This document shows, piece by piece, positions 201 to 41,953 of a stretch of DNA of 64,000 nt (position 1 is its first letter; each line of letters starts with the position of its first letter). The stretch is from an uncultured Clostridia bacterium. GTDB lineage: Bacteria > Bacillota > Clostridia > Christensenellales > UBA1242. The position numbers and the translations under genes are program-made. The notes under the pieces were generated by a model, which saw nothing but the letters and a program-made list of their open reading frames with translations, was not told the DNA's origin and searched no databases. Location of the stretch: assembly GCA_930990975.1 (NCBI GenBank), contig CAKNRR010000002.1, positions 204 through 64,203 of the forward strand, given 5' to 3'.

Positions 201-929
201 ATGAAAGAAAAAATGTGGAATCCTTGGCATGGATGTCATAAATATAGCGAAGGTTGTTTAAATTGTTATATGTTCAAGTTTGATAAAGAGCGTGATATTG
301 ATTCTAACATAGTCTATAAAACAAAGGACTATACGATGCCAATTAAGAAAGATAGGGAAGGATTGTATAAGCTCAAATCTGACTCATGTGTAAATGTGTG
401 TCTGACATCTGACTTTTTTATAGAGGAGGCTGATGAATGGCGAAAAGATGTTTGGAAGATGATGAAGTTTCGTAGCGATGTAAAATTTATTCTTTTCACT
501 AAAAGAGCAAATCGAATAAAATCTTGCTTGCCAGAAGACTGGGGAGATGGTTATCCTAATGTTGGTATAGCTTTAACAGTTGAAAATCAAAAGCGAATTG
601 ATGAGCGCATGCCACTGTTTTTGGAAATAAAAGCTTCTTATAAGATAGCTTTAGTCTCTCCGATGTTAGAAAAGGTAAACATAGAGAAATATATAGAATC
701 AAGCCAAATAGATGAAGTTTCATGCAGCGGTGAAAACTATAACAATGCACGCCCATGTGACTATGAATGGGTGAAAGATTTGTCTGAGCAGTGTAAAAGA
801 AATAATGTTACATTTAAATTTTTTCATACAGGTTCTAATTTTATAAAAAACGGGAAAATCTATCACATTCCATATAATAAAGGAAAAGAACAAGCCCGAA
901 AGGCATATTTAGATTATAAATCAACTTAA
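201..929 (+). CDS. DUF5131 / phage Gp37-Gp68 family protein (three-Cys motif)
   Basis: N-terminus WNPWHGCHKYSEGCLNCY fits the WNPxxGC-x6-C-x2-C signature and the ~240-aa size of the Gp37/Gp68 (DUF5131) family. Assignment is from motif memory only. Confidence 0.65.
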   Translation: MKEKMWNPWHGCHKYSEGCLNCYMFKFDKERDIDSNIVYKTKDYTMPIKKDREGLYKLKSDSCVNVCLTSDFFIEEADEWRKDVWKMMKFRSDVKFILFTKRANRIKSCLPEDWGDGYPNVGIALTVENQKRIDERMPLFLEIKASYKIALVSPMLEKVNIEKYIESSQIDEVSCSGENYNNARPCDYEWVKDLSEQCKRNNVTFKFFHTGSNFIKNGKIYHIPYNKGKEQARKAYLDYKST

Positions 930-1006
930 TTGTTCATAAGCATTAAAGTTCGCTTAAATATTAGCGAGTTTTTGTTAAAATAATTAAAATATGCCGTCAT
1001 TTTTAC

Positions 1007-1034
1007 TTGGCCGGGGGGGGGAGAATGATATAAT
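1007..1034 (+). promoter_or_regulatory. Putative sigma-A-type promoter (TTGGCC / TGaTATAAT) whose spacer is mostly a poly-G tract
   Basis: TTGgcc at ~1007-1012, G run at ~1013-1021, extended -10 TGaTATAAT at ~1026-1034. A GAGGTG RBS (~1051) and TTG start at 1062 follow. Confidence 0.4.
1013..1021. repeat. Homopolymeric G tract (about 9 G)
   Basis: ccGGGGGGGGGag read directly. No other G/C run of comparable length was seen in this AT-rich window. Confidence 0.85.
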
Positions 1035-1061
1035 AATTTTATAATATTTTGAGGTGTAAAA

Positions 1062-3806
1062 TTGAAAAATAAAATAAATGAAAAATTTTTATTAAAGTTA
1101 TTAACATTTATTGTATTTTGTTTCTGTTTAGTAGCAGGAATTTGTTTCTTAGGGAATGATAATTTTCAATTTGATAATACAAGCGCATCGGAAGTTTATG
1201 CAAATATAACAATTAAAGTTCAAGTAAAGCAGCCAGGCTCAAATACATGGAAGAATCAATTATTTCTTAATGATGCCGAAGGCAATGCAGTATATTTTGA
1301 AGGACCGATAGCAAACTTAACAGCAAGTTCTGATGAGGAGTTGTATATAGATGGCGACTAAATAGAGGGATCTAGTGTAAAAAATAAAAGCTATTCAGTG
1401 GAAAGTTCGCTTACTATAAATTTACGAGCACGTAGATGGTCTTTTTTAGACACAAATCTTACTTACAGCGTAGTGGTATCTGCACCTGAAGGTAATCAAG
1501 ATAATAATCTTGAGTATATGGAAGTAGGATATATGGCAGATAGCAAAAATGGGAACTCAATTTCTGATTCTATTGAGGGTTCTGGTAATACAAATAATCA
1601 TACGCTTGAAGTTAATTATAGACCATTAACTCATAAAACAGATTTTTATAATGATTCTACACTTTTAGAAACTATTACTCAAGAAAATTTTGCACATTGG
1701 GTTTTCCCTTCAGAAAATCCGACTAAAACAGGGTATACATTTGATTATTGGTATTTTAGTGCGAAATTAAATTCAAAATCCGTAGTGAAAATGCTAAAAA
1801 ATACACTTGGAACCAACAGAAAAGTTGAAGCTCGTTGGAAAGCCAATACATATACAGTGAAATTTAATGGTAATGGAAGTACAAGCGGAAGGATGAGTGA
1901 TCAAAGTTTCACATATGATACTGCACAAAAATTAACAACAAACGCATTCAAAAAGACGGAATATAACTTTTCAGGTTGGGCAACATCTTCAAGTGGAGGG
2001 GTGTCATATAGTGACGGTCAAAGTGTATCAAATCTTACATCAACAAATGGTGGAGTAATAAACCTTTATGCAGTGTGGAAGCCAAACATATATACAATAA
2101 CTTTAGATAGACAAGGGGCGACAAATGGGTCAAGTTCCGTTACAGCAACATATGGGAGTGTAATGCCATCAATAAGTGTTCCAACAAAGACAGGATACAC
2201 ATTCCAAGGCTATTATACAAGTACAAATGGAGGAGGGACAAAATATTACAATTCCAATGGAACGAGTGCAAGAAATTATGATATAGCGAATAGTACAATC
2301 TTCTACGCCTATTGGACACCAATAAGTTATAGTATAAACTTTGACATAGGTAATAATGGTTCATGGCCAAGTTCATCACCAACAAACAATACTCAATATG
2401 ACACGGCATTAAATGTACCAAACCCTAAATCACCAACAGGCTATACTTTCTCAGGTTGGACAGCAAGTGGCAGCAATTTTAATTCAACAACAGCAAGAAT
2501 AGGGACAAGCACAAACAACTGTAATACTACATGGAATGGGACAACAAAGACAAAGAATACATATTTTAAAAACCTATCATCAACCAATAGTGGGAAAGTA
2601 ACAATGACAGCCAATTATACAGCCAATAGTTACACAGTGAGATTCAATCCAAATGGAGGAACAGTATCACAAACGACAAAGAGTGTAACCTATGACAGCA
2701 CCTATGGAACACTACCAACACCAACAAGGACAGGATATAAATTTACAGGCTGGACACTGAATGGAACAACAATAAGCTCAACAACAAAAGTTCAGACAGC
2801 AAGTAATCATACATTGATAGCGCAATGGGAAGCAAATGAATATACAGTAACCTTTGACCCAAATGGCCAAGGAGGGACAGTAAGTCCAACAACCAAGACA
2901 GTAACCTATGATAGCACCTATGGAGATTTACCAACTCCAACAAGAGCAGGATATATATTTATTGGCTGGTATACAAGTGATAATGGAGGAAGCCATGTAT
3001 TATCAAATACAACAGTAAAGACAGCAAACAATCACTTACTTTATGCCCACTGGCAAGATACATGGGCAAACCATACAGAAGCACCAAGCCTAAGAGTGCC
3101 AAGTAATCCAAACAATGCAAGCAATCCATACATAATCGACACACCAGGGAATTTAGCATGGCTAGCAATGCAAGCACAGATAAAACACTTTAGTGGATAT
3201 TTTGAACAAACAACAAATATAGACTTAAGCGGACATAAATGGCTCCCAATAGGCACAAACACATATTCATTCAAAGGTTTCTATGATGGAAAGGGATATG
3301 CAATCACAGGGCTAGAAACTGCTCCAACAACAAATGTATCCAACTCAACCTCAGTCAACTCCTATGTAGGATTATTTGGGAATACCAACGGAGCAAAACT
3401 TAATAACATTTATATTAAAGGTGCAGACATAAAAGGTCATACAAATGTAGGTGGAATAGTAGGTTATGCCAGCGGTTCAACAGTGCTTACAAGCTGTGGT
3501 TTCAGTGGAACAATATCAGCCCAAGCAAATAGCGGAGCATTGATAGGGAACTCAGCTTCAACCACAGTGCAGATGACAGATTGCATAGTTTTCTCAGCAA
3601 ATGTAGACAAGCTTAACTCAGGCTCAGCAACCACGACAAGCACAGTTTATGTACTTAATGGAAAGAAAGGCTATATAGGCTCAAGCTTTACAAACTGGGT
3701 ATTTGTAAGCGGGATGCCATATCCAGTGCCAAAAGGATTGTCTTGGCTTGCACAAGGAGGCGAACAGGCTACTCTAACCGATATACAAAATTGGGTAAAT
3801 AGTTGA
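1062..3806 (+). pseudogene. Large secreted/surface repeat protein (signal anchor, six Listeria-Bacteroides B-repeats, GLUG-like C-domain) split by one in-frame TAA at 1359-1361
   Basis: Track ORFs 1062..1361 and 1398..3806 share a frame (starts differ by 336 nt). Only one stop plus 12 sense codons lie between them. The hydrophobic signal/anchor LLKLLTFIVFCFCLVAGICFLG is only on the 99-aa piece. The 802-aa piece has no signal peptide and no SD before its GTG. Confidence 0.6.
1629..3060 (+). repeat. Six tandem ~70-aa Listeria-Bacteroides repeat (InlB B-repeat / Flg_new-like) modules, coding
   Basis: Recurrent module ...YTVxFNxNGG...[19 protein letters not shown]...W: [58 protein letters not shown]. 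The last two modules are also similar at DNA level. Confidence 0.7.
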
Positions 3807-3960
3807 TTAAAGATTATTGAAAGTATATATTTTAAAAAGTAATAACTGAGTTTTATCAAAAATAATTGTATGCTAAAATAAACAATTTTGAGTTTTAAAA
3901 GATTTATTATTTTTATATAAATAAATCTAAAAATTAATAATTTGAATGGTCAAAAGGAAA

Positions 3961-3992
3961 AAGGAACAAGATTACGCTTGTTCCTTTTTTTG
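3961..3992 (+). terminator. Rho-independent terminator after the surface-protein gene
   Basis: AGGAACAAG-attacg-CTTGTTCCT followed by a T run. Confidence 0.8.
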
Positions 3993-5690: not shown

Positions 5691-7355
5691 TTAATTATAA
5701 AATTTAATTTTATCCATTTTGCCTATAGTTTTTTTATTTGATTGCTCCTTTGAGTTGTTGTCTTTGATTTTATTAAAAGCTATATTGAGTTTGGTTTCAG
5801 AGCTTTTTAAAGAATCTGATTTTATATTTTGATTTGCGCTATTGTTGAGCAAATTGATGCGGAGCTTTTGATCTTTGTTGTTTTCATTTGATAATTTATT
5901 ATTGTCGATGTTTTTGTTGGGTTCGACAATGTTTTTGTTGATAGAAGATTGTGGATTGCTGTCATCTTTTTTGATGATATGCTTAATTAAATTGCTGGCA
6001 TTTTTACTTGTTTCTGCTAGATTACTCCCTCTGTTTTTATGTTTGATATTTTGATTTTTTGGACTGTCTTTTATATTGTCTTTGATCTGATTTTTTGCAG
6101 AGTCCTGTTCAATATTTTGCTTTTCATTATTATTTTGAACAGGTTGATTTTCTAAATTGATTGTGTTTATATAGGCGCCATCAAACTGATTCCCGTTATT
6201 GTAACCATTATTATAATTGTACGGCATATATCTATAGGTGTCAATATTTCTGTTTAACGGATAAAATGAATCGGTATTCCTGTTTGGATTAAATCTTCTA
6301 TTTAAATTGTTTGGATAATATTGATTGTTGTAAGGGTAATTATAAGGATTGAATCTTTGGTTGTTATAGGTCCAATTATTATAATTGCGATTTCTGTAAT
6401 TTTGATAATTATTTGTTAGATTGTTGTTTTGATAGTTGTTTCCTGTATAGTTGTTTTTTGTATATTCATAATTGTAATCAAGTTGTTTGTTTTGGGCTTT
6501 GTTTGTGCTTTGGTCTTTGTTTAAATAAGTGTCGATATTAGATTTTATTCCTGTGTTATTTTTTGTGTCGTTGTTTTCATTATTATTTAAAGTGTTTAAA
6601 TTATTGTTATTTTCATTAAGGTTGTTTGTGTCTTGGTTTTGGTATTGTGGATAATAATTCCAGTCTATGTTTTGCCCATTATTAAAGTTATTGTAGTTAT
6701 TGTAATTGTTGAAATTGTTGTAATTATTGTTAGCGATATTCTCGTTATTTGGTGTATTACTTGTTTGATTTTGTGACGAGTACAATAAATTAGCAACTTC
6801 ACTCATTGTGTTTAAAAGATTATTCAAATATGCCTTTCTTTCGTTCATGATATTAAAAAGTGATTGATAGGCACTTGTCGCTTTTTCGGCACTTAGAGAT
6901 TTTCCTTGAGTGTATTTTTTGATTTGTTTGACATAATTGTCGACATCAGATTTTGAATCACTGATATAATCAGTGTATTTGTCAATGTCGCTTGTCAAAT
7001 TATTCAAAGCTGTTACGGTATCTTTATTTAATTTATATTTTGTTTTGTTTGATTTTAAATAGCTTGACATTGATAAAATGTCTTGTCTAAGATATTCTTC
7101 TTCTAGCATTGTTCTGTATGACAATGATTTTAAATCTTGCAGTTTATTTGCATAGTTGTCGTCGCCGTTTGCGTTGTAAGTGTTTAAATAGCTTACCTGA
7201 GATATTTCATTGTCATCTACTGTATTTACGACATCAGTGGTTTTGTCTAGTTGAGAATTCAAGTTCTTGACAGCTTGAGAGCTGTCATTTGATGAGCAGC
7301 CAGCTAGTGTCAAACAGGACAATAAACATATTGACGAAATAATAACTTTTTTCAT
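5691..7355 (-). CDS. Lipoprotein with very long Asn/Tyr/Gln-rich low-complexity region
   Basis: Signal peptide plus lipobox (CLTLAGC-SS). The structured N-domain is ~190 aa. Several hundred residues dominated by N, Y and Q follow (NNYNNFNNYNNYNNFNNGQN...). Confidence 0.6.
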   Translation of the reverse strand: MKKVIISSICLLSCLTLAGCSSNDSSQAVKNLNSQLDKTTDVVNTVDDNEISQVSYLNTYNANGDDNYANKLQDLKSLSYRTMLEEEYLRQDILSMSSYLKSNKTKYKLNKDTVTALNNLTSDIDKYTDYISDSKSDVDNYVKQIKKYTQGKSLSAEKATSAYQSLFNIMNERKAYLNNLLNTMSEVANLLYSSQNQTSNTPNNENIANNNYNNFNNYNNYNNFNNGQNIDWNYYPQYQNQDTNNLNENNNNLNTLNNNENNDTKNNTGIKSNIDTYLNKDQSTNKAQNKQLDYNYEYTKNNYTGNNYQNNNLTNNYQNYRNRNYNNWTYNNQRFNPYNYPYNNQYYPNNLNRRFNPNRNTDSFYPLNRNIDTYRYMPYNYNNGYNNGNQFDGAYINTINLENQPVQNNNEKQNIEQDSAKNQIKDNIKDSPKNQNIKHKNRGSNLAETSKNASNLIKHIIKKDDSNPQSSINKNIVEPNKNIDNNKLSNENNKDQKLRINLLNNSANQNIKSDSLKSSETKLNIAFNKIKDNNSKEQSNKKTIGKMDKIKFYN

Positions 7356-30935: not shown

Positions 30936-31088
30936 AAGATATTTATTGACAAATATATTGATTTTAAACTTATAAAATCACTTAAAAATCAAGCTTGATT
31001 GATAAAAACAAGAAGTTTGTTTGACTTTAATTTTTTTTTTATTTATACTTGAATTATAAAATTTTTTCTTAGATAAAAGGGGATTAAA

Positions 31089-39041: not shown

Positions 39042-39123
39042 GCGGGCGTGGCGGAATGGCAGACGCGCTTGTTTAAGGGGCAAGTGGGAAACCGTGTGGG
39101 TTCGACTCCCACCGCCCGCACCA
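39042..39123 (+). tRNA. tRNA-Leu, anticodon read as AAG (A34), CCA encoded
   Basis: Acceptor GCGGGCG/CGCCCGC, D arm GCG-GAATGGCAGA-CGC, anticodon arm CTTGT-TTAAGGG-GCAAG, 11-nt variable arm with GAAA loop, T arm GTGGG-TTCGACT-CCCAC, ACCA. 82 nt. The G36-G37 context is typical of CUN-reading Leu tRNAs. Confidence 0.85.
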
Positions 39124-41678: not shown

Positions 41679-41694
41679 CTAAAACATAATAAAA

Positions 41695-41953
41695 GCTATG
41701 ATGAAAGAGTAGTAATAGAATTGATTTATCAAAGAGAGTTTGTCCTTGGCTGAAAGACAGATATAATAGATTTTATGAATTCACTTTCTAGCTACATTTA
41801 TGAAGTTTTGCATTGTTGTAATAAAGTGTAAAATGCGTAGTTTATGTCGTTATGCCTGCGTAAATGGTTTTAATAAGGATTGATAAAATCAATTAAAGTT
41901 AGGTGGTACCACGAAAAGTATTCTTTCGTCCTAATAGGAAGAATACTTTTTTT
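41695..41953 (+). promoter_or_regulatory. T-box riboswitch leader, Phe specifier (UUC)
   Basis: GA/K-turn ATGATGAAAGAGTAG. Stem I AGAGAG...TGGCTGAAAG. Specifier gaaTTCA (~41780). T-box AAAGTTAGGTGGTACCACG. Terminator AGTATTCTT...AAGAATACTTTTTTT. Confidence 0.8.

What the first reader, a model, noticed from the sequence alone, without database searches (positions are those of the whole stretch)
1007..1061. G9 homopolymer fills the spacer of the putative promoter of a surface-protein gene: candidate slipped-strand phase switch
- Read directly: acTTGGCC-GGGGGGGGG-agaaTGaTATAAT, then a GAGGTG RBS and the TTG start at 1062.
- The G run makes up more than half of the ~16-nt spacer, so gain or loss of one G would change the -35/-10 spacing.
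- I saw no other G or C run longer than about 5 in this AT-rich 64 kb, so its placement is unlikely to be neutral.
- Homopolymer-in-spacer ON/OFF switches are established for surface antigens of Neisseria, Haemophilus and Mycoplasma.
- I do not know of this being described for spore-forming Clostridia-like Firmicutes.
- The downstream gene is a large repeat-rich surface protein, the classic target class.
Basis: partly seen in the sequence, partly recalled or inferred. Interest (0 to 1): 0.72.

Follow-up and report, generated by a model that had tools for sequence, protein, structure and literature searches.

The report
G9 run inside a promoter spacer
A run of nine G's sits between the two halves of the promoter of a highly variable surface-protein gene in an uncultured gut spore-former, and related species carry the same G9/C9 design at other promoters, so it is probably a slippage-tuned expression switch of a known kind in a new lineage, although in this genome the gene it drives is broken by a stop codon.

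Summary
G9 lies at 1013-1021 and is the only G/C run longer than 5 in 64 kb (0.014 expected). It fills 9 of the 16 spacer bases between TTGGCC and TGaTATAAT, upstream of a GAGGTG RBS and a TTG start.

- **Broken gene.** The reading frame has an in-frame TAA at 1359-1361. It splits the frame into a 99-aa membrane-anchor fragment and an 802-aa InlB-B-repeat ORF with no signal peptide.
- **Mosaic, lineage-specific gene.** The gene is inserted between DUF5131 and spoIIAA. One strain has a different N-terminal module without that stop.
- **The tract is one of a class.** In 327 kb from this clade, G/C runs are 3x length 6, none of 7-8, and 6x length exactly 9. All six sit in 15-16-nt spacers of sigma-A-like promoters, four with perfect hexamers, upstream of lineage-specific genes, most encoding secreted or membrane-anchored proteins.

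Across 13 assemblies of this species the tract is G9 twelve times and G10 once. G10 gives the optimal 17-nt spacer.

Verdict: a slipped-strand promoter switch is the best explanation and is partly supported. It is a new member of a known kind (PorA-type spacer homopolymer) in uncultured gut Clostridia. There is no read-level, TSS or expression evidence, and the near-constant length 9 keeps a fixed-element rival alive.

The parts
201..929 (+). Upstream gene, a DUF5131 family protein of 242 aa. In relatives it sits directly before spoIIAA.
   Evidence: Pfam PF07505, E 3.9e-38. Synteny in L010, L012, L013 and L021.
939..976 (+). Weak terminator-like hairpin with a U-run after the DUF5131 gene. 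It separates the surface gene's promoter from upstream transcription.
   Evidence: Fold energy -9.3 kcal/mol, z -1.74. Not listed by the terminator scan.
1007..1012 (+). -35-like hexamer TTGGCC (4/6 match). It reads TTGTCC in the L091/L097/L101 lineage and TTGATG in L102.
1013..1021 (+). G9 homopolymer, 9 of the 16 spacer bases. It is G10 in one assembly (L097).
1026..1034 (+). Extended -10 element TGaTATAAT.
1051..1056 (+). Ribosome-binding site GAGGTG, 5 nt before the TTG start.
1062..1361 (+). First 99 codons of the surface-protein frame, carrying the K-rich N-terminus and a roughly 22-residue hydrophobic anchor or signal. It ends at an in-frame TAA (1359-1361).
   Evidence: The TAA is present in every assembly that carries this N-terminal module.
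1362..3806 (+). Continuation of the same frame. The ORF caller gives 802 aa from GTG 1398, with no RBS and no signal peptide. It holds six Flg_new / InlB B-repeats and a C-terminal domain with a weak GLUG motif. Among strains it is a mosaic of identical and 15-70% diverged blocks.
   Evidence: Pfam PF09479, 1.3e-57, six stretches. TIGR02543. GLUG E 0.012. Mosaic structure.
3956..3991 (+). Intrinsic terminator of the surface-protein gene, before the spoIIAA-spoIIAB-sigF operon.
   Evidence: 15-bp stem followed by a T-run.

Best explanation
**What it is**
- The element is a housekeeping-sigma (sigma-A type) promoter: TTGGCC, a 16-nt spacer, then TGaTATAAT.
- More than half of the spacer is an uninterrupted G9 run.
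- The promoter drives a lineage-specific, recombination-shuffled gene for a membrane-anchored InlB-B-repeat surface protein.

**How it most likely works**
- The run is a slippage-prone sequence. Gain or loss of one G during replication changes the distance between the -35 and -10 hexamers. This step is inferred.
- G9 gives 16 nt, which is sub-optimal. G10 gives 17 nt, the spacer that dominates in this clade's promoters.
- Transcription would therefore be set stochastically and heritably between lower and higher states. This step is also inferred.

**A class, not a one-off**
- Related uncultured gut Clostridia have G9 or C9, in either orientation and at different places within the spacer, in promoters with perfect or near-perfect hexamers.
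- Those spacers are 15-16 nt, one or two bases short of the optimum.
- Each such promoter heads a single lineage-specific gene. One encodes a lipoprotein and one a membrane-anchored protein; the third product has no recognisable signal.

**Why almost always 9**
- The near-constant consensus length fits a mutational equilibrium like the one reported for poly-G/C tracts of Campylobacter jejuni, where the modal length is 9.
- On this reading most populations sit in the low-expression state.

**State in this genome**
- A TAA at codon 100 separates the signal/anchor from the repeat domains. Here the switch is attached to a gene that is, at present, a pseudogene or yields only a 99-aa fragment.

**Shown**: anatomy, rarity, recurrence across loci, one G9/G10 polymorphism, gene mosaicism, and the stop codon.
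**Inferred**: promoter use, slippage rate, and the effect of length on expression.
For: **Tract and promoter anatomy**
- G9 is unique in the window; 0.014 such runs are expected.
- The site is a 10/12 promoter match with an extended -10 and a 16-nt spacer.
- The chance of such placement is about 0.8% per strand.

**Length polymorphism**
- 12 assemblies have G9 and one (L097) has G10.
- L097's sister strain L091/L101 shares the same flanking SNPs but has G9.

**Long persistence**
- The tract survives in three diverged promoter alleles: TTGGCC-G9-AGAATGA, TTGTCC-G9/10-AGTATGA and TTGAT-G9-TAGAATGG.
- Substitutions sit immediately next to the run, yet the run itself is never interrupted.

**Census of the clade**
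- In 327.5 kb, G/C runs are 3x length 6, none of length 7-8, and 6x length 9.
- All six lie in promoter spacers. Four of the 21 perfect TTGACA/TATAAT sites carry C9, with 15- or 16-nt spacers.
- A 17-nt spacer is the norm among sites scoring at least 11/12 (44 of 91).
- The tract lies on either strand and at different offsets within the spacer. This argues for a spacing role rather than a positioned binding site.

**Downstream genes**
- They encode a lipoprotein with a Big_3 domain, a TM-anchored protein, an orphan protein with a faint WG-repeat match and no recognisable signal, and the InlB-repeat protein of this window.
- All are lineage-specific insertions.
- The window gene is a diversifying mosaic: background divergence is 1-2%, against blocks of 15-70% divergence inside the gene.

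**Literature**
- The precedent for a modal length of 9 set by mutational pattern is PMC3401435.
- The precedent for the spacer mechanism (PorA poly-G, hifA/B TA repeats) is PMC3899988.
Against: - Consensus length is 9 in 12 of 13 assemblies of this species and in every observation of the relatives' tracts, including two pairs of orthologous promoters in different species. A rapidly switching tract might be expected to differ more often.
- An extended -10 makes promoters less dependent on the -35 element and on spacing (established knowledge), so the effect of one G may be small here.
- The gene is interrupted by a TAA in every assembly that has this N-terminal module. One assembly (L008/L095) has an additional 20-bp frameshifting deletion. 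Any switch is therefore currently without an exported product.
- Other intergenic indels also occur between strains, for example T7 to T10 at 3985 in L102. One G9/G10 difference is weak proof of hypermutability.
- Promoter-like matches are not enriched over shuffles in this AT-rich DNA (25 against 20.9).
- There are no TSS, read-level or expression data.
Confidence: 0.52

Rival explanations
1. The G9/C9 run is a fixed-length promoter element, not a switch. It is kept at exactly nine base pairs because of what it is. It could be a rigid G:C block that sets spacer geometry or supercoiling response, or the site of an unknown clade-specific DNA-binding regulator. On this view expression is regulated physiologically, not by mutation.
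For: - The length is exactly 9 at four independent loci and in orthologous promoters of different species. There are no runs of 7, 8 or more than 10 in 327 kb.
- In L102 the run is shifted one base, yet it is still nine long.
- In the lipoprotein promoter the spacer differs between species (16 against 15 nt) through a change outside the run, while the run stays at 9. It is therefore the tract length, not the spacing, that is conserved.
Against: - The run occurs in both orientations and at three different offsets within the spacer. This is unlike a positioned operator.
- One G10 variant exists.
- I know of no bacterial regulator or structural rule that requires nine G:C pairs (own knowledge).
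- A modal length of 9 is documented for truly hypermutable poly-G/C tracts in C. jejuni (PMC3401435).
Confidence: 0.2
2. The tract is a functionless relic on a decaying pseudogene. The surface-protein gene has been inactivated, and the promoter and its tract are carried along. The G9/G10 difference is neutral drift.
For: - There is an in-frame TAA at codon 100 in all assemblies with this N-terminal module.
- The L008/L095 assembly has a further 20-bp frameshifting deletion.
- No suppressor tRNA was found, and TAA is the usual stop codon.
- The 802-aa ORF lacks both an RBS and a signal peptide.
Against: - The uninterrupted run and the hexamers are retained in three diverged promoter alleles. 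One of them (L102) heads an allele without that stop.
- The same design recurs at intact genes in relatives.
- The downstream 2.4-kb frame is still open in most strains, so inactivation is recent.
- This rival concerns the present state of this strain rather than what the element is.
Confidence: 0.17
3. The true promoter lies elsewhere, or a sporulation sigma factor is used, given the position next to spoIIAA-spoIIAB-sigF. On this view the G run is merely upstream or leader sequence with no effect on spacing.
For: - Sigma-70-like matches are no more frequent than in shuffled sequence.
- A second TATAAT lies at 1040-1045.
- The neighbourhood is rich in sporulation genes.
Against: - The site has the best combination in the intergenic region: a -35 hexamer scoring 4/6, TGn, a perfect -10, and correct distance to the RBS.
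- The second TATAAT has no TG and no -35 partner.
- I found no good match to sigma-F, -G, -E or -K consensus by eye. This is inference and was not formally scanned.
- Relatives' tracts lie between perfect TTGACA and TATAAT hexamers.
Confidence: 0.08
4. The run is a sequencing or assembly artefact, such as two-colour-chemistry poly-G.
For: One unrelated contig (L077) ends in G9. This is how such artefacts or assembly breaks look.
Against: - The tract is internal to contigs of up to 645 kb.
- It has identical flanks in 12 assemblies from several studies and assemblers.
- It is conserved in diverged alleles.
Confidence: 0.01

Closest known systems
Neisseria meningitidis porA (poly-G between -35 and -10) and opc (poly-C in the promoter)
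   Same: A G/C homopolymer of about 9-11 bases lies inside the promoter spacer of a surface-protein gene. A change of one base alters hexamer spacing and transcript level (PMC3899988, for porA; opc from own knowledge).
   Different: - The Neisseria genes belong to a Gram-negative mucosal pathogen, with experimentally measured expression classes.
- Here the host is an uncultured, spore-forming gut Firmicute and there is no expression data.
- This promoter has an extended -10, and the target gene carries a premature stop.
Campylobacter jejuni poly-G/C contingency loci
   Same: - The genome is AT-rich (about 30% G+C).
- G/C runs form a distinct length class with a modal length of nine (PMC3401435).
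- The associated genes encode surface structures.
   Different: - In C. jejuni the tracts are mostly inside reading frames and act through frameshifts.
- Here all six lie in promoter spacers.
- C. jejuni lengths spread over 8-13, whereas here nearly all are 9.
Mycoplasma hyorhinis vlp (poly-A in the spacer), Haemophilus influenzae hifA/hifB (TA repeats in the spacer), Bordetella fim (poly-C), Treponema pallidum tpr (poly-G upstream)
   Same: A repeat tract within or next to the core promoter sets the spacing, and therefore ON/OFF or graded expression, of surface antigens (hif: PMC3899988; the others from own knowledge).
   Different: The repeat unit or its position differs. None of these is in Clostridia.
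Clostridioides difficile phase variation (cwpV, flagellar and cmr switches)
   Same: A spore-forming gut Firmicute varies its surface proteins stochastically (own knowledge).
   Different: C. difficile uses invertible DNA segments and site-specific recombinases. No inverted repeats or recombinase are involved here.

Membership tests
Promoter-spacer simple-sequence-repeat phase variation (PorA/Opc/Hif/Vlp type) | An uninterrupted repeat tract long enough to slip (G/C of about 8 or more) lies between the -35 and -10 hexamers. | tested here: met
   G9 at 1013-1021 lies between TTGGCC and TGaTATAAT, in a 16-nt spacer.
Promoter-spacer simple-sequence-repeat phase variation (PorA/Opc/Hif/Vlp type) | Tract length differs by whole repeat units between closely related strains. 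| tested here: met
   G10 in L097 against G9 in its sister L091/L101 and in 11 other sequences (10 assemblies plus this window). Only one variant was seen, so the support is thin.
Promoter-spacer simple-sequence-repeat phase variation (PorA/Opc/Hif/Vlp type) | High-frequency, reversible length heterogeneity occurs within a clonal population. | not testable with these tools
   Only consensus assemblies are available, with no reads.
Promoter-spacer simple-sequence-repeat phase variation (PorA/Opc/Hif/Vlp type) | Transcription starts from this promoter, and its strength depends on tract length. | not testable with these tools
   There are no TSS or expression data. Indirect support: 17 nt is the dominant spacer in the clade's strong sites, while tract-bearing spacers are 15-16 nt.
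Promoter-spacer simple-sequence-repeat phase variation (PorA/Opc/Hif/Vlp type) | The controlled gene encodes a surface-exposed or otherwise contingency-type product. | tested here: inconclusive
   - The product has an N-terminal anchor plus six InlB B-repeats, and the gene is a hypervariable mosaic.
- However, the frame is cut by a TAA at codon 100 in this genome.
- It is intact in the L102 allele.
Genome-wide poly-G/C contingency-locus system (Campylobacter/Neisseria type) | Many G/C tracts per genome form a length class far above compositional expectation. | tested here: inconclusive
   Six runs of length 9 and none of length 7-8 were found in 327 kb from 22 genomes. Only the region around sigF was sampled in the relatives, and no whole-genome census was possible.
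Genome-wide poly-G/C contingency-locus system (Campylobacter/Neisseria type) | Mismatch repair is absent or weak, or another cause of high slippage rates is present. | not tested
   mutS and mutL were not seen among the annotated genes of the window. The rest of the genome was not available.

The most novel reading that the evidence does not exclude
An uncultured clade of spore-forming gut Clostridia may use a genome-wide set of poly-G/C contingency promoters.
- Single-gene cassettes for secreted or surface proteins would be inserted between core genes.
- Each would carry a consensus sigma-A promoter held one or two bases short of optimal spacing by a G9/C9 run.
- Slippage to G10 or G11 would switch them on in a minority of cells.

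This would be the first homopolymer-based contingency system described in Clostridia. Unusually, it would act at promoters rather than in reading frames.
Probability: 0.35. Interest if true: 0.65.

Novelty: new member of a known kind. Interest (0 to 1): 0.5.

Why it matters
Known phase variation in gut Firmicutes works through invertible DNA. Homopolymer contingency loci are known mainly from Gram-negative mucosal pathogens and mycoplasmas. If the G9/C9 promoters switch, abundant uncultured gut spore-formers would diversify their surface proteins by replication slippage. That would affect how strain-level variation, phage or IgA escape, and 'pseudogenes' are read in metagenomes. Short-read consensus assemblies would hide the variable state. 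The claim is directly testable with reads that already exist for the listed samples.

Tried and rejected
- **Collection scans for the promoter pattern.** I searched with a variable gap. JGI metagenomes gave 4 hits, all chance matches without a G run. GTDB species representatives gave no hit, and the best SigF match there is 83%, so the species seems not to be among the representatives.
- **Phage collection.** No match. The region is chromosomal core, not a prophage.
- **Homologues of the N-terminal part of the surface protein.** Only the B-repeats found relatives, and the N-terminal module is an orphan.
- **Homologues of the relatives' tract-driven genes.** This was meant to supply more strains, but only the two known sequences of each were found. 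Extra assemblies of those were all C9.
- **Alternative genetic code or suppressor tRNA for the in-frame TAA.** Rejected. TAA ends 36 of 49 ORFs, and no tRNA with a stop anticodon was found.
- **Invertible segment upstream of DUF5131**, suggested by clustered differences between L091 and L097. Rejected. The region is a cluster of six tRNA genes with diverged spacers, and no inversion was found.
- **RNA structure or known RNA family at the tract.** None.
- **Sigma-F, -G, -E or -K promoter.** Checked by eye only. No convincing match, but not formally tested.

Full report
**1. The observation**

The sequence reads TTGGCC (1007-1012), G9 (1013-1021), AGAATGA, TATAAT (1029-1034). TG lies at 1026-1027, GAGGTG at 1051-1056 and TTG at 1062. 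The consensus scan lists the site as a 10/12 match with a 16-nt spacer and TG before the -10.

The window is 31% G+C. Its other G/C runs are seven G5 and two C5, and the expected number of G runs of 9 or more is 0.014. A random 9-mer would fall wholly inside the spacer of a site scoring at least 10/12 at 0.8% of positions per strand, and only 12 of 125 such sites have TGn.

No RNA structure or Rfam family involves the tract. A weak hairpin with a U-run (939-976) follows the upstream gene.

**2.

The frame that starts at 1062 runs to 3806 but contains an in-frame TAA at 1359-1361.
- The first 99 codons carry the K-rich N-terminus and a hydrophobic anchor or signal.
- The remaining 802-aa ORF carries six Flg_new / InlB B-repeats (PF09479, 1.3e-57; TIGR02543) and a C-terminal domain with a faint GLUG motif.
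- This second ORF has no RBS and no signal peptide of its own.

TAA ends 36 of 49 long ORFs in the window. No suppressor tRNA is present in the window or in the six-tRNA cluster just upstream. In this genome the gene is therefore interrupted.

**3. Organism and context**

The window is core chromosome of a spore-former. It holds spoIIAA-spoIIAB-sigF, spoVAC/D/E, yunB, dnaG, sigA, recJ, relA, pnp, obg, tig, clpX, pheT, recN and rny.

The species seems not to be among the GTDB representatives. The best SigF identity is 83%, to MAGs labelled 'uncultured Clostridia bacterium' from gut-type samples.

In relatives L010, L012, L013 and L021 the DUF5131 gene lies directly before spoIIAA. The surface-protein gene and its promoter are therefore a lineage-specific insertion.

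**4. Strains of the same species**

Exact-protein look-ups returned contigs from 12 assemblies. Background divergence is 0-2%, but the surface gene is a mosaic of identical blocks and blocks 15-70% diverged.
- One strain (L102, ERZ1643262) replaces window 1036-2075 with an unrelated N-terminal module and has a single 832-aa ORF without the TAA.
- One assembly (L008/L095) has an extra 20-bp frameshifting deletion.
- The TAA-bearing N-terminal module is essentially identical between two lineages that differ by 1-2% elsewhere. This suggests recent recombinational spread.

The promoter exists in three alleles:

| Lineage | -35 region | Run | Sequence up to the -10 |
|---|---|---|---|
| window type | TTGGCC | G9 | AGAATGA-TATAAT |
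| L091/L101 and L097 | TTGTCC | G9 (L091/L101), G10 (L097) | AGTATGA-TATAAT |
| L102 | TTGAT | G9 | TAGAATGG-TATACT |

In the third allele the run is shifted one base, but the total length is unchanged. The tally is twelve G9 and one G10. G10 gives a 17-nt spacer. The run is never interrupted, although the bases flanking it have changed.

As a control, other intergenic indels also occur between strains, for example T7 to T10 at 3985. A single G9/G10 difference is therefore suggestive only.

**5. The unexpected part: a class of such promoters**

In 327.5 kb (21 relatives' loci plus the window), G/C runs of 6 or more are three of length 6, none of length 7 or 8, and six of length exactly 9. The five outside the window all lie between sigma-A hexamers:

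| Locus | -35 | Spacer | -10 | Spacer length |
|---|---|---|---|---|
| L018 | TTGACA | AAT-C9-GAT | TATAAT | 15 |
| L019 (first) | TTGACA | AAT-C9-GAG | TATAAT | 15 |
| L019 (second) | TTGACA | ATT-C9-GCTT | TATAAT | 16 |
| L020 | TTGACA | ATT-C9-GCG | TATAAT | 15 |
| L021 | TTGACA | AAATTGC-G9 | TAAAAT | 16 |

- Four of the 21 perfect 12/12 sites in this DNA carry C9.
- Among all 91 sites scoring at least 11/12, a 17-nt spacer dominates (44 of 91). Every tract-bearing spacer is instead 15 or 16 nt.
- The run is on the coding strand at two loci and on the template strand at two. It also sits at different offsets within the spacer.

The genes driven are:
- an orphan 444-503-aa protein with no recognisable signal;
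- a lipoprotein with a Big_3 domain;
- a 337-aa membrane-anchored protein.

Each is a lineage-specific single-gene insertion between core genes. Two different ones sit at the same spoVAC/spoVAD junction. They have no other homologues among 5.8 billion proteins. Additional assemblies of two of these promoters again show C9.

**6. Mechanism**

The run is a replication-slippage tract that sets hexamer spacing. The common G9 state holds the promoter one or two bases short of the 17-nt optimum, and G10 or G11 raises activity.

The tight mode at 9 is the main difficulty. It is matched by C. jejuni, where poly-G/C tracts have a modal length of nine. That mode is attributed to the mutational pattern: G8 mostly inserts and G11 mostly deletes (PMC3401435). 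The lipoprotein promoter keeps C9 in two species while its spacer differs (16 against 15 nt). This fits an equilibrium tract length better than selection for a fixed spacing.

The same facts also fit a rival in which a nine-base G:C block is a fixed element of unknown function. I give that 0.2.

The extended -10 in the window's promoter may blunt the effect of spacing. The TAA means that in this genome the switch currently has no exported product, so a 'relic on a pseudogene' reading describes the present state of this strain (0.17).

**7. Comparison with known systems**

The anatomy matches promoter-spacer repeat switches. These include PorA poly-G and hifA/B TA repeats (PMC3899988), and opc, fim, vlp and tpr from my own knowledge.

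| Defining feature | Result |
|---|---|
| Tract inside the spacer | met |
| Unit-length polymorphism between strains | met, thinly |
| Within-population heterogeneity | not testable here |
| Length-dependent transcription | not testable here |
| Surface-exposed or contingency-type product | inconclusive here, because of the stop codon |

Literature searches found no description of homopolymer promoter switches in Clostridia. Known phase variation in C. difficile uses DNA inversion (own knowledge).

**8. Verdict**

- It is a new member of a known kind, in a new and uncultured lineage, with evidence that it belongs to a clade-wide class.
- Interest is 0.5. The mechanism would not surprise a specialist. 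The recurrence of exactly-nine G/C runs in otherwise perfect, slightly short-spaced promoters of gut spore-formers is new, and it can be tested with existing reads.

Noticed in passing
window 1359-1361: An in-frame TAA splits the surface-protein frame into 99 aa and 802 aa. It is present in every assembly that carries this N-terminal module. That module is essentially identical between lineages that differ by 1-2% elsewhere, as if the interrupted allele had spread by recombination.
   Followed up: yes
window 1036-3806; L101, L102, L008: The InlB-B-repeat gene is a mosaic hypervariable locus. Strains swap whole modules: L102 has an unrelated N-terminal third. They also show clustered substitutions in the repeats, in-frame length variants (787, 789 and 800 aa) and one 20-bp deletion.
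   Followed up: partly
L018:3541, L019:10184, L019:12291, L020:4742, L021:11101: Exactly nine G or C lie in 15-16-nt spacers of perfect or near-perfect TTGACA/TATAAT promoters in related MAGs. Each heads a lineage-specific single-gene insertion. Two different such genes occupy the same spoVAC/spoVAD junction.
   Followed up: partly
L001 4997-5761 (just upstream of window position 1): A cluster of six tRNA genes (Tyr, Thr, Phe, Asp, Met, Pro) lies on the minus strand next to the DUF5131 gene. The inter-tRNA spacers are strongly diverged between strains. In L002 the sequence beyond tRNA-Met is different and holds a BioY gene.
   Followed up: partly
window 5691-7355 (-): A 554-aa lipoprotein has a very long Asn/Tyr-rich low-complexity region and no Pfam match. 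Its N-terminal 190 aa are conserved (33-51% identity) at the same position in relatives.
   Followed up: no
window 31031-31040: T10 is the longest homopolymer in the window. It lies inside a TTGACT-17-TATACT promoter-like site in an intergenic region, so it may be a second homopolymer-in-spacer case, or just an AT-rich coincidence.
   Followed up: no
L019 12060-12260; L020 4560-4700: Several copies of a short repeat containing TGTCATTTCGACCG lie between spoVAC and the C9 promoter of the inserted lipoprotein gene. The repeat is absent from the window.
   Followed up: partly
window 41689-41936 and 39042-39123: A T-box leader lies upstream of the pheS/pheT region, and there is a tRNA-Leu(AAG) gene. 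Both are ordinary.
   Followed up: no
L077 8403-8411: A contig of an unrelated rabbit-gut Bacilli MAG ends in G9. This may be an assembly break at a poly-G tract or a poly-G read artefact.
   Followed up: no
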